A stretch of 19,348 nucleotides of DNA, from positions 1-19,348 of the forward strand of contig JBBQYG010000062.1 of NCBI GenBank assembly GCA_038208905.1, read 5' to 3'. Source of the stretch: Candidatus Sumerlaeia bacterium (GTDB lineage: Bacteria; Sumerlaeota; Sumerlaeia; SLMS01). The notes beneath the pieces were generated by a model. The model was given only the letters and a program-made list of their open reading frames with translations, searched no databases and was not told where the DNA came from. Below, piece by piece: positions 7,253 to 11,246 of the stretch (the first letter of the stretch is position 1; each line of letters begins with the position of its first letter). Made by a program: the position numbers and the translations under genes.

Positions 7253-8413
7253 TTACTCTTCTTCGTCCTCGTCGTCGTCGGAACCCGCCGATGCCGGAGG
7301 CTTCAGATCCGACAGCTTGATCGGCATCAGCAGCGCCAAGCGCGTCTCCTCGTCCTTGGACTTGAAGACAACCGGCGCCGTCGCGTTCTTGATCAGCATC
7401 TTGAGGTCCGGCGACGCGAAGCGCGACAGCGTGTCGTTCAGGAACTGGTAGTTGAACGCCAGCTCCAGCGGCGCGCCCGTGTAGTCCAGCGAGATCTTTC
7501 CGCTGAACGTGCCGATGTCGTGTGCCGCGGCGGCGAACTGGCAACTGTTGTTCTCGAACTTCAGGATGATCGACTTGTTCTTGTCGTCGGTCACGATGCC
7601 CGCGCGGCGAGAGGCCTGGGTGAAGACGTCGCGGTTCAGGTCGATCGTGATCGGGAAATCCTTGGGGATCACCGTATCGCAGTCGGGATACTTGCCGTCG
7701 ATCCCGTTGCAGCGATAGTGGATGTTGTTGAAGCGGAACGTCACCTGGCGCCCCGCGAACTCAATCTCCACGGGCCCCTCGCTGCCGAGGAACCGGGCGA
7801 GGTTGTCCAGAATCTTGCGCGGCACCACGATGCTGCCGGTTCCCACGCCCTCGACCTCGGGAACGCTGGCGCTGATGCGCGCCAGCTTCTTGCCGTCCGT
7901 CGCCGTCAGGCGCAGCGAATGGTCCGCCAGCTCGAACAACACTCCCAGCAGCACGCGCCGATGGTCCTTCGTGGGGAGCGCGTAAACCGTCGCCTCCACC
8001 ATGTTCTTCAGGGTCTTTTGGGCGATCTGGAACTTCGTCTCTCCGGTGATTGCCGGCCACTCCGGGAAGTCCTCCGCCGGCAGCGTCATCAGCTTGTAAT
8101 CGTTCGTCTCGCACTGCACCTCGACCTTGCGCCCGATCTCCTCGATGGAGACCTCGCCCTGCGGCGGCAGCAACTTCACGATGTCGCGGAACGTATCCGC
8201 CGGCACCGTCGTCCGGCCCGGGCGCTTCACCGTCGCCCCCACGTTCACCGTCACCAGCGCCTCCATGTCCGTCCCGCGGAACGTGACCCCCTGCTCGGAA
8301 GCCTCCATCAACAGGTTCCCAAGGACGGGGAGCGGCCCCGCCGTGCGATCCACGAGGCTGGAAACAACCTGGGCCGCCAGTTCGAGTTCCTTCTGGGGAA
8401 GCGTCACATGCAT
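7253..8413 (-). CDS. dnaN: DNA polymerase III beta sliding clamp
   Basis: PVLGNLL, GTDME, AEDFP, VLLGVLF...ATDGKKLA, IVVPRK, IDGKYPD...IP, AFNYQFL.D, LLMPIK; 386 aa. Confidence 0.95.
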   Translation of the reverse strand: MHVTLPQKELELAAQVVSSLVDRTAGPLPVLGNLLMEASEQGVTFRGTDMEALVTVNVGATVKRPGRTTVPADTFRDIVKLLPPQGEVSIEEIGRKVEVQCETNDYKLMTLPAEDFPEWPAITGETKFQIAQKTLKNMVEATVYALPTKDHRRVLLGVLFELADHSLRLTATDGKKLARISASVPEVEGVGTGSIVVPRKILDNLARFLGSEGPVEIEFAGRQVTFRFNNIHYRCNGIDGKYPDCDTVIPKDFPITIDLNRDVFTQASRRAGIVTDDKNKSIILKFENNSCQFAAAAHDIGTFSGKISLDYTGAPLELAFNYQFLNDTLSRFASPDLKMLIKNATAPVVFKSKDEETRLALLMPIKLSDLKPPASAGSDDDEDEEE

Positions 8414-8570
8414 GGTCGGAGAACACCTCTGGGCGCCGGGGCGGCGTCAACGAATGGCATAGCAGTCAAGTGAGGATGACACCCGAGGGATCGGGAGGTG
8501 TCAAGCGGGCGGAGGGAGCACAGGTCGCGACTCGCGCTCTTTGTGAGCCAGCTTAGGGTGAGGAAGTCGC

Positions 8571-8822
8571 CTACTTCCCCTTCTTCGCCTTCACCTGCGA
8601 TAGCGCCGATCCCGCCGCGCTCTTGGAGTCCTTGCTCGTCCGCCCGTCGCGGAGCACCTTCGACGCAGCTGCCGCCGCCTTTTTGCCGGTGGTCTCCTGG
8701 GGGGAGGACTTCTGTGTGAGGGCGCTGGCCGCCGCCGTCTTGGAGGCCTTGCCGTCGGCCTTGGAGGAGAGAACCTTGGACGCGCTGGTTGCTGCCTTTG
8801 TGCCCGTCTGCTTCTCGGTCAT
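8571..8822 (-). CDS. Small basic Lys/Ala/Ser-rich protein with two ~32-aa repeats (copy A, 83 aa), function unknown
   Basis: MTEKQTGTKAATSASKVLSSKADGKASKTAAASALTQ...TGKKAAAAASKVLRDGRTSKDSKSAAGSALSQVKAKKGK. Paralog of 9602-9874 with mostly synonymous differences. Also in frame with the upstream DUF2283 ORF. Confidence 0.75.
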   Translation of the reverse strand: MTEKQTGTKAATSASKVLSSKADGKASKTAAASALTQKSSPQETTGKKAAAAASKVLRDGRTSKDSKSAAGSALSQVKAKKGK

Positions 8823-8973
8823 ACCCCCCCGCCCGGGCCTGCGGTAAGACCAGAGTGTCTCTGCACTACCTTTCAGTGGGGTGCCGGTCGCCCTTTCCGC
8901 AGGGTGCCTTGGTCGCCCGACCTCCGTCGGGGATGCCCCACGGGCACCCACAGGCTCGTTCTGGGGCTCACTT

Positions 8974-9146
8974 TCATCCCCCCGACGAGCGCGCTGCGAA
9001 ACACTTAGAATCTCGATTCCCACGACCACACCCTGCTCGTTGAAATCAAGAATGACTCCCGGCGCCACCTGCTCCGACTCGATAATTGCCGAGTCCTCAA
9101 GCCGAAGATAGAGGGCATCAGCCTTTTCGTCCATGTGTAGGTTCAT
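8974..9146 (-). CDS. DUF2283-domain protein (putative antitoxin); as sequenced it has no in-frame stop here and reads through to 8571
   Basis: MNLHMDEKADALYLRLEDSAIIESEQVAPGVILDFNEQGVVVGIEILSVSQR matches D..ADALY..L....ES.E...G..LD....G..VGIEIL. ATGA overlap with the DUF4258 gene. The end given is an out-of-frame TGA just after a G6 run. Confidence 0.8.
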
Positions 9147-9394
9147 AGCAGCTTCCTTGCGGCACGGTCGAAGTAAGTTGTAACGACCCTCGGTGGGCTC
9201 GTGGTCCCGTTGAAAATCACCCGCAAGATGCGGTCGCCGTTTTCCGTGATGCGCAGGAAGTGCTGGTTGAGCTCCGGGTCGTCAGGATGAGCCATGATTA
9301 GCTCTGGCGATACGAGCGCTCTCTGGATCCACTCCAACTTGATTCCCCGCTCGGCGATGGCCTTCGCGGCATGTTCGCTCAGTTGATATTCCAT
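9143..9394 (-). CDS. DUF4258-domain protein (putative RelE/BrnT-like toxin), 83 aa
   Basis: MEYQLSEHAAKAIAERGI...ALVSPE...GDRILRVIFN...VVTTYFDR matches S.HA....ERGI ... R.LRV ... VVT.YFDR. AAGGGGG precedes the ATG at 9394. Confidence 0.8.
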   Translation of the reverse strand: MEYQLSEHAAKAIAERGIKLEWIQRALVSPELIMAHPDDPELNQHFLRITENGDRILRVIFNGTTSPPRVVTTYFDRAARKLL

Positions 9395-9601
9395 GACCGC
9401 CCCCTTGTCCAGCGCCAACGTCGCGCGTACCGTCAGCTCTGGATACAAATCCTCCCGCTCGCCCTGCGAAGATCAGGTGGGAAGTCATTCTCGCTATCCT
9501 CAACCGGTTGCCGCGTCAGTATGGGGATGCGCGAGGGCAACGACTGCGGGGAGGGTCGGGGATGGGAGCTCACCTCATACGTGACCGACGAGTGGTTACT
9601 C

Positions 9602-9874
9602 CTACTTCCCCTTCTTCGGCGCCGCCTTCTTGGCCTTCGTCTGCGCCATAGCCGATCCCGCCGCGCTCTTGGAGTCCTTGCTGGTGCGCCCATCGCGCAG
9701 AACCTTGGAGGCCGCCGTCGCCGCCTTCTTGCCGGTGGTCTCCTGGGGGGAGGACTTCTGTGTGAGGGCGCTGGCCGCCGCCGTCTTGGAGGCCTTGCCG
9801 GTGTCCTTGGAGGAGAGAACCTTGGACGCGCTGGTTGCGGCCTTTGTACCCGTCTGCTTCTTCGCTGCCGCCAT
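9602..9874 (-). CDS. Small basic Lys/Ala/Ser-rich protein with two ~32-aa repeats (copy B, 90 aa), function unknown
   Basis: MAAAKKQTGTKAATSASKVLSSKDTGKASKTAAASALTQ...TGKKAATAASKVLRDGRTSKDSKSAAGSAMAQTKAKKAAPKKGK. AAAAGG upstream; GC3-rich codon use. Confidence 0.8.
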   Translation of the reverse strand: MAAAKKQTGTKAATSASKVLSSKDTGKASKTAAASALTQKSSPQETTGKKAATAASKVLRDGRTSKDSKSAAGSAMAQTKAKKAAPKKGK

Positions 9875-10002
9875 GGTGTCGACCGCCTTTTCGAGGGAGC
9901 ACTGGCGCATGGGTCAACTGCTTTGATCGCGCCGAGTTGCTGCGAACCTTATCTGCCGAAGGGCTGGAGGTTACAATGGAGAAGTCATCGACGGAATAAA
10001 CT

Positions 10003-10557
10003 TCATGGGCAGCCCACCGCCCGCTCCGCGAACCACAAACCCCCAAAGATCTTCGGATCAACCATCGCCCCATCCGTCTGCTTCTGGGCCAGCCACCCGG
10101 GGACGTCGGGGAGATGGATCTCGTGGAGGACGATGTCCTCGCCGTCCACCCCCCCGCCGGGGCCGGAGCGGGTCAGTTCGCGCGCAAGGACGAGCACGAC
10201 GTACTCGCTGCTGAGCCCCGGCGATGGCGGCCCGTGGGCCACGATCTCCATGCGGGCCGCGTCGTACCCGGTTTCCTCCAGCAGCTCGCGACGCGCCGCG
10301 TCGAGCACCGATTCCTCCCGCGTGTCCTCAAGGTCACCAACGAGGCCAGCAGGGAGCTCGATGCAGCGGGCGCCGATGGGGGGACGGGTCTGCTCCACCA
10401 GGAGGAGCTTCCCTTCCGGCGTCACGGCGATGATCACGGCGGCGAGCGGCGAGTGGGCGCGTTCGAGGTACTCCCACCCGGAGGGCGTCCGCATGAGGCT
10501 GACAAAGCGGCCCTTGGCGAGGACGGTGGCTCCGGGGATTGGGCGGGGGATGTTCAT
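10003..10557 (-). CDS. Nudix hydrolase (ADP-ribose pyrophosphatase-like)
   Basis: LLVEQTRPPIG..CIELPAGLVGD...AARRELLEETGY (Nudix box), SPGLSSE. Confidence 0.9.
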   Translation of the reverse strand: MNIPRPIPGATVLAKGRFVSLMRTPSGWEYLERAHSPLAAVIIAVTPEGKLLLVEQTRPPIGARCIELPAGLVGDLEDTREESVLDAARRELLEETGYDAARMEIVAHGPPSPGLSSEYVVLVLARELTRSGPGGGVDGEDIVLHEIHLPDVPGWLAQKQTDGAMVDPKIFGGLWFAERAVGCP

Positions 10558-10566
10558 GGGGGAGGA

Positions 10567-10956
10567 TCAGTCTTCCACTGGCGGAATTGGAGTTTCGCCG
10601 TGCTTCTCAACAAGCGCGATCAACCCGGCGAGGGACTCCAGAAGCGGTGGCAACTCTGAATCGAGGATCGATTGCACCTTGTCCAGCCTCACTCCCCCGT
10701 ATCCATGAACCAAGTGGTGACGGAATCCTGAGATCAGGGCCCAGGGGATTTCAGGCGCGAGCGCACGAACAGCGCCGGGGGCTTTTGTTGCTGCCTCGCC
10801 GGCTACTTGCAGTGGATAGGGAATCGAAAAGCGGTAGGGTTCGTCGTCGGCGAGGTCCTTGAGACTCTTGCCGTGGGAGTGCGCCTTCGCCTTTCCCGCA
10901 TCGTCGCGCATGTCTTCCGAATACTGCAAGACATCGGCACAGGTTCTCGGCTTCAT
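10567..10956 (-). CDS. HEPN (DUF86/HepT-like) ribonuclease toxin
   Basis: GEAA...PEIPWALISGFRHHLVHGY (R-x4-H-x-Y motif)...ELP.L; ATGA overlap with the MNT gene. Confidence 0.85.
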   Translation of the reverse strand: MKPRTCADVLQYSEDMRDDAGKAKAHSHGKSLKDLADDEPYRFSIPYPLQVAGEAATKAPGAVRALAPEIPWALISGFRHHLVHGYGGVRLDKVQSILDSELPPLLESLAGLIALVEKHGETPIPPVED

Positions 10957-11246
10957 ACCGCGATGGCTTCGCGCTCGATACGCTGGCGAATGCGGAAACC
11001 GAGCAGGTCGCGATCCACGATATCAACGCGGGCGCCCAAGGCGCTGGAGAGTTCTTCCTCCAGGGCGACATGCTCCCGATAGGTTATGGAGCCGGTGAAC
11101 TCGACCGCCAAGTCAATGTCGCTGGATTCGATCTGCTCGCCCGGGCTGTAGGAGCCGAAAAGCTCGACTCCCGCGATCCTGTACTTCCGCCTGAGTACCG
11201 GTAGCAGTGTGGCGAGGATCGTTAGGGCTTCTTCGCGGGTCTTCAT
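10953..11246 (-). CDS. Minimal nucleotidyltransferase (MntA-like antitoxin)
   Basis: LFGSYSPGEQIESSDIDLAVEF (GS-x10-DxD) ... LG.RVDIV; 97 aa. Confidence 0.88.
   Translation of the reverse strand: MKTREEALTILATLLPVLRRKYRIAGVELFGSYSPGEQIESSDIDLAVEFTGSITYREHVALEEELSSALGARVDIVDRDLLGFRIRQRIEREAIAV

What the first reader, a model, noticed from the sequence alone, without database searches (positions are those of the whole stretch)
8571..9874. DUF4258/DUF2283 TA pair sandwiched between two copies of an uncharacterised small basic repeat protein: candidate new system
Seen: on one strand, small gene B (90 aa), DUF4258, DUF2283, small gene A (83 aa), inserted between the Nudix gene and dnaN. The small genes are direct repeats offset by 1046 bp, with no recombinase in the window. 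Inference: either the small K/A/S-rich protein is a third component (nucleic-acid-binding regulator, decoy or trigger) of a TA/defence module, or the TA pair acts as an addiction lock on the duplication. Recombination between the copies would loop out a ~1.05-kb circle carrying the TA, a possible recombinase-free route of gain, loss or amplification.
Basis: partly seen in the sequence, partly recalled or inferred. Interest (0 to 1): 0.72.

Follow-up and report, generated by a model that had tools for sequence, protein, structure and literature searches.

The report
Toxin-antitoxin pair between duplicated small genes
A toxin-antitoxin-like gene pair sits between two 90%-identical copies of a small gene of unknown function, and other assemblies of the same species carry one hybrid copy without the pair, so the pair is likely removed by recombination between the copies rather than forming a dedicated three-gene system.

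Summary
The layout is real: copy B, DUF4258, DUF2283, copy A, with 237-nt repeats, 90% identical, 1046 nt apart. Corrections: the protein repeat is 39 aa, not 32, and DUF2283 has a degenerate tail, no stop, and reads in frame into copy A. A dedicated third component is not supported. The small gene (PHROG 5079) had no DUF4258 or DUF2283 nearby in 162 other loci. It was absent near 29 of 29 other DUF2283 loci. It is, however, general defence-region cargo: 60 of 276 neighbours hit PADLOC, against 11 of 150 controls. The recombination idea is supported. Two same-species metagenome contigs and three further protein records show one hybrid gene without the TA, with different junctions. Assembly collapse is not excluded for all of them. 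Five of nine same-family genomes have Nudix next to dnaN with no insert. Closest known case: restriction-modification genes inserted with a long target duplication (PMC2853133). Toxicity, addiction and circles are untested. No look-alike earlier finding of this scan was returned. Verdict: new variant of a known kind, moderate interest.

The parts
9602..9874 (-). Copy B of the small basic two-repeat protein (90 aa, two PHROG 5079 units, pI 10.7, no aromatic residues)
9395..9601 (-). Spacer between copy B and the toxin gene; no attC-like, Rfam or sigma-70 consensus site found
9143..9394 (-). DUF4258 gene, 83 aa; predicted BECR/RelE-like fold; candidate RNase toxin with the conserved positions of its relatives kept
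8949..9146 (-). DUF2283 coding part (66 codons); candidate antitoxin; residues 53-66 homologous but degenerate; no stop codon
8823..8948 (-). Spacer read in frame as a 42-codon linker from DUF2283 into copy A (191-aa ORF 8571-9146); GC3 0.64, not host-like
8571..8822 (-). Copy A of the small basic two-repeat protein (83 aa, own ATG)
8579..8815 (.). Direct repeat, left copy (237 nt; longest identical run 72 nt at 8683-8754)
9625..9861 (.). Direct repeat, right copy (90% identical, offset 1046)
8499..8504 (-). TTGACA upstream of dnaN, also present in the Nudix-dnaN gap of 5 of 5 relatives inspected; the insert lies upstream of it (likely dnaN promoter -35, inferred)
10003..10557 (-). Nudix hydrolase gene, upstream flank
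7253..8413 (-). dnaN, downstream flank

Best explanation
This is an accessory insertion between Nudix and dnaN in which a candidate DUF4258-DUF2283 toxin-antitoxin pair lies between two copies of a small defence-region gene, and recombination between the copies likely deletes the pair and leaves one hybrid gene. Shown: the layout; the two copies are each other's closest relatives; 5 of 9 same-family genomes have no insert; TA-free hybrid alleles with different junctions exist in same-species assemblies. Inferred: the small gene arrived first as mobile cargo. [quoted passage not shown] The copies differ by about 10% while strains differ by about 1% in the flanks, so the two-copy state is probably older than strain differences and today's single-copy alleles are probably deletion products. 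Host recombination acting on the 72-nt identical stretch would suffice, and the excised 1046-nt piece has no recognisable replication gene and would be lost. The toxin is predicted to be a BECR-fold RNase that would slow such loss by post-segregational toxicity (untested). The small protein is likely a basic four-helix nucleic-acid binder that travels with many defence modules and is not specific to this pair. The DUF2283-copy A read-through is likely accidental decay.
For: Repeat and layout. Copies A and B are sisters, support 99/87, in a poorly resolved tree of 76 rows. Nudix lies beside dnaN with no insert in 5 of 9 same-family genomes with a dnaN match. L174 and L175 run Nudix, one hybrid gene, dnaN, and L174 is 99% identical to the window in the flanks. 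L174 is B-type at 14 consecutive diagnostic sites and switches to A-type across only 5 shared bases; L175 switches earlier. P0005, P0125 and P0126 are further hybrids with two different ends. Small genes have host-like GC3 (0.88, 0.89; dnaN 0.90), the TA genes do not (0.73, 0.62). DUF4258 lies directly upstream of DUF2283 in 11 of 29 other loci. Toxin model pLDDT 94; best fold matches are RelE/ParE, YoeB, CdiA-CT and BrnT, top Z 8.2, rmsd 3.1, 81 aligned. No DUF4258/DUF2283 near the small gene in 162 loci. Precedent: PMC2853133, sections 15 and 18.
Against: The single-copy alleles come from metagenome assemblies, and L175 is chimeric in the 5' part of its Nudix gene, so collapse of a repeat is possible. 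No joint was listed in 8 contig sets. A fresh target duplication gives near-identical repeats (43-47 matches in 46-47 bp in the rows seen of PMC2853133 Table 2), whereas these differ at 23 of 237 sites, 18 of them in the 3' half. That also fits capture of a copy from a related lineage. Direction of events is not rooted by any complete genome. In the pneumococcal tvr locus a TA-like pair inside repeats was not found to act as an addiction system (PMC6265443 passages). TA genes lie directly upstream of the small gene in 8 of 75 loci, so some functional link to TA modules remains open.
Confidence: 0.58

Rival explanations
1. The small protein is a general accessory of TA and defence operons. A toxin-antitoxin-small gene cassette from a related lineage integrated by single crossover into a resident copy of the small gene, which therefore serves both as accessory protein and as homology handle.
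For: 60 of 276 neighbours hit PADLOC against 11 of 150 controls (Fisher p 1e-4). A TA gene lies directly upstream and co-oriented in 8 of 75 loci. A co-oriented gene follows within 60 nt in 20 of 69 loci, among them Hachiman, CBASS, SLOG-TIR, AbiD and OLD genes. 3 of 41 long forms carry an N-terminal HTH antitoxin-like domain. Uneven 10% divergence between A and B fits two sources.
Against: Partners are unrelated to each other and never DUF4258/DUF2283. 37 of 75 loci have no PADLOC hit. Both copies have host-like GC3 while the TA does not. No second two-copy sandwich in 80 genome loci. Co-location is expected of any mobile cargo gene.
Confidence: 0.22
2. The two-copy locus is fixed, the single-copy alleles are assembly collapses, and the locus is a dead-end duplication with a decaying TA.
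For: L175 is demonstrably chimeric. Strain variants lengthen the identical run between copies. The DUF2283 tail is degenerate and its stop is gone.
Against: The L174 switch lies within 5 shared bases, too short for k-mer collapse of the window's copies, so at least one real exchange between copies is needed. Hybrids occur in JGI and ENA records with different ends. The toxin keeps its conserved positions.
Confidence: 0.14
3. One reading: a dedicated three-component system in which the small protein regulates, decoys or triggers DUF4258-DUF2283, possibly as a DUF2283-copy A fusion that gives the antitoxin a DNA-binding module.
For: In-frame 191-aa ORF; basic helical protein; antitoxin-like fusions of the small protein exist in other organisms.
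Against: 0 of 162 and 0 of 29 loci link the families. 114 of 120 listed DUF2283 relatives are 66 aa, though that search covered only 38-123 aa. None of 41 long forms of the small protein has DUF2283. The linker has non-host GC3.
Confidence: 0.06

Closest known systems
Insertion with long target duplication of restriction-modification genes (Furuta et al. 2010, PMC2853133; reviewed in PMC3874152)
   Same: Addictive-type gene pair, no mobility gene, flanked by long direct repeats, with an empty single-repeat site in other strains; repeats may span gene ends; fusions and decay at the target were reported.
   Different: Cargo is a candidate RNase TA pair, not an RM system, so no DNA-break activity is encoded. 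The repeat is a whole protein gene of 237 nt and only 90% identical. Empty sites are mosaics with several junctions and come from metagenome contigs.
Type II TA systems with BECR-fold toxins; DUF4258 (PF14076)
   Same: Small overlapping gene pair; predicted BECR fold. PMC11980606 lists DUF4258 among RelE/ParE-superfamily toxins; bioRxiv 10.64898/2026.08.28.747851 places it in the colicin-like BECR group.
   Different: DUF4258 activity is listed as unknown. Order here is toxin first, whereas PMC11980606 gives antitoxin first for the family. No paper in the library holds both DUF4258 and DUF2283. The antitoxin here has a degenerate tail and no stop.
Pneumococcal tvr locus (PMC6265443)
   Same: A TA-like pair inside direct repeats that is excised as a circle of about 1 kb; low-level excision occurs without the recombinase.
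   Different: tvr encodes its own recombinase and shuffles HsdS; its TA-like pair was not found to act as an addiction system.
PHROG 5079 (unknown function)
   Same: Each copy matches the 49-position profile twice (E 1e-22, 2e-21).
   Different: 73 of 80 viral loci carry the one-repeat form, often antisense in the early region near repressor and antirepressor genes; the window has the two-repeat form, duplicated.

Membership tests
Type II toxin-antitoxin system | Two small adjacent, co-oriented, coupled genes | tested here: met
   4-nt stop/start overlap at 9143-9146
Type II toxin-antitoxin system | Toxin of a known toxic fold | tested here: met
   Predicted only: pLDDT 94, top matches RelE/ParE, YoeB, BrnT, CdiA-CT, Z 7-8
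Type II toxin-antitoxin system | Pair conserved as a unit elsewhere | tested here: met
   DUF4258 directly upstream in 11 of 29 other DUF2283 loci, some cut by contig ends
Type II toxin-antitoxin system | Toxicity neutralised by the partner | not testable with these tools
   Needs expression assays
Type II toxin-antitoxin system | Direct toxin-antitoxin binding | not tested
Type II toxin-antitoxin system | Intact antitoxin | tested here: inconclusive
   Core 1-52 conserved; tail 53-66 scores 0.1 against at least 12.7 for 114 relatives; stop lost
Insertion with long target duplication (Furuta 2010 criteria) | Insert under 20 kb with both genes and no mobility gene | tested here: met
   1046-nt unit holding only DUF4258, DUF2283 and one repeat
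Insertion with long target duplication (Furuta 2010 criteria) | Duplication longer than 30 bp | tested here: met
   237 nt, 90% identical
Insertion with long target duplication (Furuta 2010 criteria) | Empty site with one repeat in another strain | tested here: inconclusive
   L174, L175 show it but are metagenome contigs, one chimeric; they may be deletion products rather than the ancestral site
Insertion with long target duplication (Furuta 2010 criteria) | Cargo is a restriction-modification system | tested here: not met
   Cargo is DUF4258-DUF2283; it works like this class but is not a member in the strict sense
Dedicated three-component TA or defence system | Third gene consistently linked to the pair | tested here: not met
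   0 of 162 small-gene loci and 0 of 29 DUF2283 loci
Integron cassette array | attC sites between the genes | tested here: not met
   Own pattern-and-fold scan found none in 8401-10010; spacer folding z between 0.9 and -1.8
PHROG 5079 | Profile match over most of the model | tested here: met
   Two stretches per copy, best at positions 10-47 of 49

The most novel reading that the evidence does not exclude
PHROG 5079 is an unrecognised, cross-phylum accessory protein of anti-phage and TA operons, a small basic helical hairpin acting as a dimer or fused dimer. Its highly conserved gene also serves as a portable recombination handle through which TA and defence cassettes are swapped in and out without a recombinase, and this locus catches that exchange in progress.
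Probability: 0.15. Interest if true: 0.75.

Novelty: new variant of a known kind. Interest (0 to 1): 0.42.

Why it matters
If real, this extends recombinase-free gain and loss between long direct repeats from restriction-modification genes to an RNase-type TA pair, with both alleles visible in natural populations. That makes the addiction-lock idea testable at one small locus. It also flags two undescribed things. DUF2283 is a candidate antitoxin for the uncharacterised DUF4258 toxins. A conserved 39-aa repeat family (1210 clusters at 50% identity) sits next to Hachiman, CBASS, RosmerTA, RM and Abi genes and may be a marker or accessory of defence hotspots. It is not evidence of a new three-gene system.

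Tried and rejected
Specific linkage to DUF4258/DUF2283: HMMs from 114 DUF2283 and 12 DUF4258 sequences hit only the window's own loci among the small-gene loci; distant members could be missed. Integron cassette idea: attC-like sites near 7 of 73 small genes against 10 of 150 control windows, none in the window. Conserved upstream DNA motif: none above shuffles. RNA family: no Rfam match. Promoter consensus scan: none found. Fold of the small protein: four helices, pLDDT 77, no match above common helical bundles (best Z 5.1; Foldseek none at E 0.001); this shows neither a known nor a new fold. Pfam, NCBIfam, PADLOC and PDB sequence searches gave no family for it. The Atlas, queried with homologue P0008, gave only unnamed clusters. 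tblastn of copy B against the phage and plasmid collections gave no match, with the low-complexity filter on. DUF4258 homologue search returned only the window's own cluster. DUF2283 in viral contigs: 1 locus, no small gene. Reads: only contigs were available; no joints or circles were listed, and uncovered TA stretches in X3, X4, X6 and X8 are not used as evidence. No RNA holder listed. Literature: no paper with both DUFs, none with COG5428 (a recalled label), none with the PHROG id or three short motifs of the protein; subscription journals are not covered.

Full report
1. Observation. On the minus strand the order is Nudix (10003-10557), copy B (9602-9874, 90 aa), DUF4258 (9143-9394), DUF2283 (from 9146), copy A (8571-8822, 83 aa), dnaN (7253-8413). 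The copies form a 237-nt direct repeat, 90% identical, 1046 nt apart, found nowhere else in the 4.2-Mb, 301-contig assembly. Corrections: the protein repeat period is 39 aa, and DUF2283 has no stop, so one 191-aa ORF joins it to copy A. Contigs of other studies hold pieces of the two-copy form: X2 has copy B with its TA-side spacer, X3 has copy A with its spacer, and X2, X5 and X7 have low-depth TA pieces. None spans the whole unit, and X1 may be the source sample.

2. The small protein. Each copy is two units of PHROG 5079, function unknown, with no Pfam, NCBIfam, PADLOC or PDB sequence family. The family is large: 918 clusters at 90% identity among 2129 candidates and 1210 at 50%. It is patchy: 3 of 75 genomes of the phylum, this one included. 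It is under purifying selection: over 72 cores, median pS 0.82 and pN 0.27, and pN is below pS in 2550 of 2556 pairs. The protein has pI 10.5-10.7 and no aromatic residues. The model has four helices, pLDDT 77, and no distinctive fold match. Nucleic-acid binding is an inference from charge and fold. Of 80 viral loci, 73 carry a one-repeat form, often antisense within the early region or beside Hachiman or ABC-3C genes. Permuted and three-repeat forms exist.

3. Is it a third component? I fetched the best 80 of at least 480 genome loci and 80 of 99 viral loci. All 80 genome loci have one gene within up to 6 kb; one viral locus has two; five of five whole genomes checked have one. Profiles of DUF2283 (114 sequences) and DUF4258 (12 sequences) hit none of the 82 other genome loci or 80 viral loci. 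In reverse, none of 29 other DUF2283 loci has the small gene within 1.5 kb. A dedicated link is therefore not supported.

4. A general link does exist. Genes were called with my own simple caller. After dropping 7 near-duplicate loci and ORFs under 58 aa, 60 of 276 neighbours (two each side, 75 loci) hit PADLOC at E 1e-10, in 38 loci (counted by hand). The control gave 11 of 150 proteins from 14 arbitrary regions of phylum relatives (odds ratio 3.5, p 1e-4). The test overstates: loci are related, the control is from one phylum, and both sets include generic paralogues. Clear neighbours include Hachiman (L014, L057, L085), CBASS (L046, L087, L089), RosmerTA (L048, L052, L075), type I RM (L026, L074), AbiD (L068), OLD (L031), SLOG-TIR (L052, L080) and CapH/CapP or WYL regulators (L077, L080, L086). 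TA-type genes lie within two genes in 12 of 75 loci and directly upstream, co-oriented, in 8 (two of these are related Geobacter loci). One TA-type gene was found among 87 of the 150 control proteins scanned with Pfam. Related copies in Geobacteraceae and relatives have different defence neighbours, as expected of hotspot cargo. 37 of 75 loci have no PADLOC hit.

5. The TA pair. DUF4258 lies directly upstream of DUF2283 in 11 of 29 other loci. Its model (pLDDT 94) matches RelE/ParE, YoeB, BrnT and CdiA-CT toxins best (top Z 8.2, rmsd 3.1, 81 aligned). PMC11980606 (passages) lists DUF4258 as a BECR toxin of unknown activity. bioRxiv 10.64898/2026.08.28.747851 (passages) places it with colicin-like RNases. 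PMC4963859 (one passage) pairs it with HicB in Synechocystis. No paper in the library holds both DUF names. The DUF2283 core is conserved, but residues 53-66 score 0.1 on a profile where 114 relatives score at least 12.7; only 0.1% of random frames score as high, so the tail is homologous but degenerate. None of 41 long forms of the small protein carries DUF2283, though 3 carry an HTH antitoxin-like domain and 2 more have weak antitoxin matches. I read the fusion as accidental. Binding of the two proteins could not be examined.

6. History of the locus. Five of nine same-family genomes with a dnaN match have Nudix within about 80-180 nt of dnaN and no insert; DUF2283 of this type was not found in any of 10 same-family genomes searched, 75-93% complete. 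The insert lies upstream of a TTGACA conserved before dnaN. A and B are sisters in the family tree (99/87; few columns, rough support). Both have host-like GC3, the TA genes do not. They differ in 18 of 75 codons (12 synonymous, 6 not); 18 of 23 nucleotide differences fall in the 3' half, and the longest identical run is 72 nt.

7. Single-copy alleles. An exact-pattern scan of JGI metagenomes gave 3 contigs. L174 and L175 run from Nudix through one gene to dnaN with no TA; L176 ends inside the gene. L174 is B-type at 14 consecutive diagnostic sites, then A-type after only 5 shared bases; L175 is A-type through the 3' half behind B's upstream flank. P0005 and P0125 (JGI, ENA) and P0126 (JGI) are hybrids with two different ends; P0127 is B-type. 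Different junctions cannot all be one ancestral empty site, so at least some come from exchange between the copies. Against this, L175 is chimeric in its Nudix 5' part, so collapse is possible. The L174 junction is too short for k-mer collapse of the window's copies, unless gene conversion, itself a real exchange, came first. No joints were listed in the 8 contig sets laid.

8. Mechanism. Most likely (0.58): cargo gene first, then the TA pair with duplication of the whole gene, then occasional deletion by host recombination, possibly slowed by the toxin. Layout, sister copies, empty sites in relatives and hybrid alleles are shown; order of events, recombination pathway, toxicity and addiction are inferred. 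Rivals: capture of a toxin-antitoxin-small gene cassette by crossover into a resident copy, with a general accessory role (0.22); fixed locus with collapsed assemblies (0.14); dedicated three-component system (0.06).

9. Known systems. PMC2853133 (passages and sections 14, 15, 18) describes RM genes inserted with long target duplications and no mobile element, empty sites in other strains, fusions at the target, and cites amplification through such repeats. PMC3874152 (passages) reviews this. PMC6265443 (passages) describes a TA-like pair excised between repeats for which addiction was not found. Seven papers hold both 'long target duplication' and 'toxin-antitoxin'; six were seen only as listings, so a TA precedent is not excluded. 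No supplements were read.

10. Verdict. Observation confirmed; interpretation partly supported; new variant of a known kind; interest 0.42.

Noticed in passing
window 10567-11246 (-): A second candidate TA pair, nucleotidyltransferase plus HEPN/HepT-like, lies just upstream of Nudix with low GC3; it was not seen in the short flanks of relatives.
   Followed up: partly
P0273, P0291, P0294, P0300, P0313; P0314, P0388: Circularly permuted two-repeat forms and three-repeat forms of the small protein, suggesting repeated duplication and deletion within the family.
   Followed up: no
P0255, P0351, P0355, P0251, P0281: Small protein fused or read through to antitoxin-like domains (HTH, Xre/MbcA, HI1420-like) in other organisms.
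   Followed up: partly
L048, L052, L080, L086, L014: Related small genes in Geobacteraceae and relatives sit between a regulator or TA pair (RosmerTA, WYL) and different defence genes (Avs4-like, SLOG-TIR, Hachiman): a possible defence hotspot with unannotated downstream genes worth mining, as in L082, L070, L074.
   Followed up: partly
L095-L170: In prophage-like contigs the one-repeat gene often lies antisense inside the early operon near cro and antirepressor genes, or between a defence slot (Hachiman, ABC-3C) and a sigma-like gene.
   Followed up: partly
L104:5001-5822; L059 and L060: One viral locus has two one-repeat genes around an opposite-strand ORF; one spirochaete contig has two identical genes about 10.7 kb apart, each behind an HTH gene.
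   Followed up: no
L022, L049, L067: attC-like hairpins next to the small gene suggest it is an integron cassette in a few genomes; no enrichment overall.
   Followed up: partly
G000:C94:11463-11624 (L238): A second, more distant DUF2283 gene in the same genome with a weak DUF4258-like gene upstream and no small gene.
   Followed up: partly
control genome: PHROG 5079 also matches in Deinococcus radiodurans, a tractable host for testing the family.
   Followed up: no
   Followed up: no
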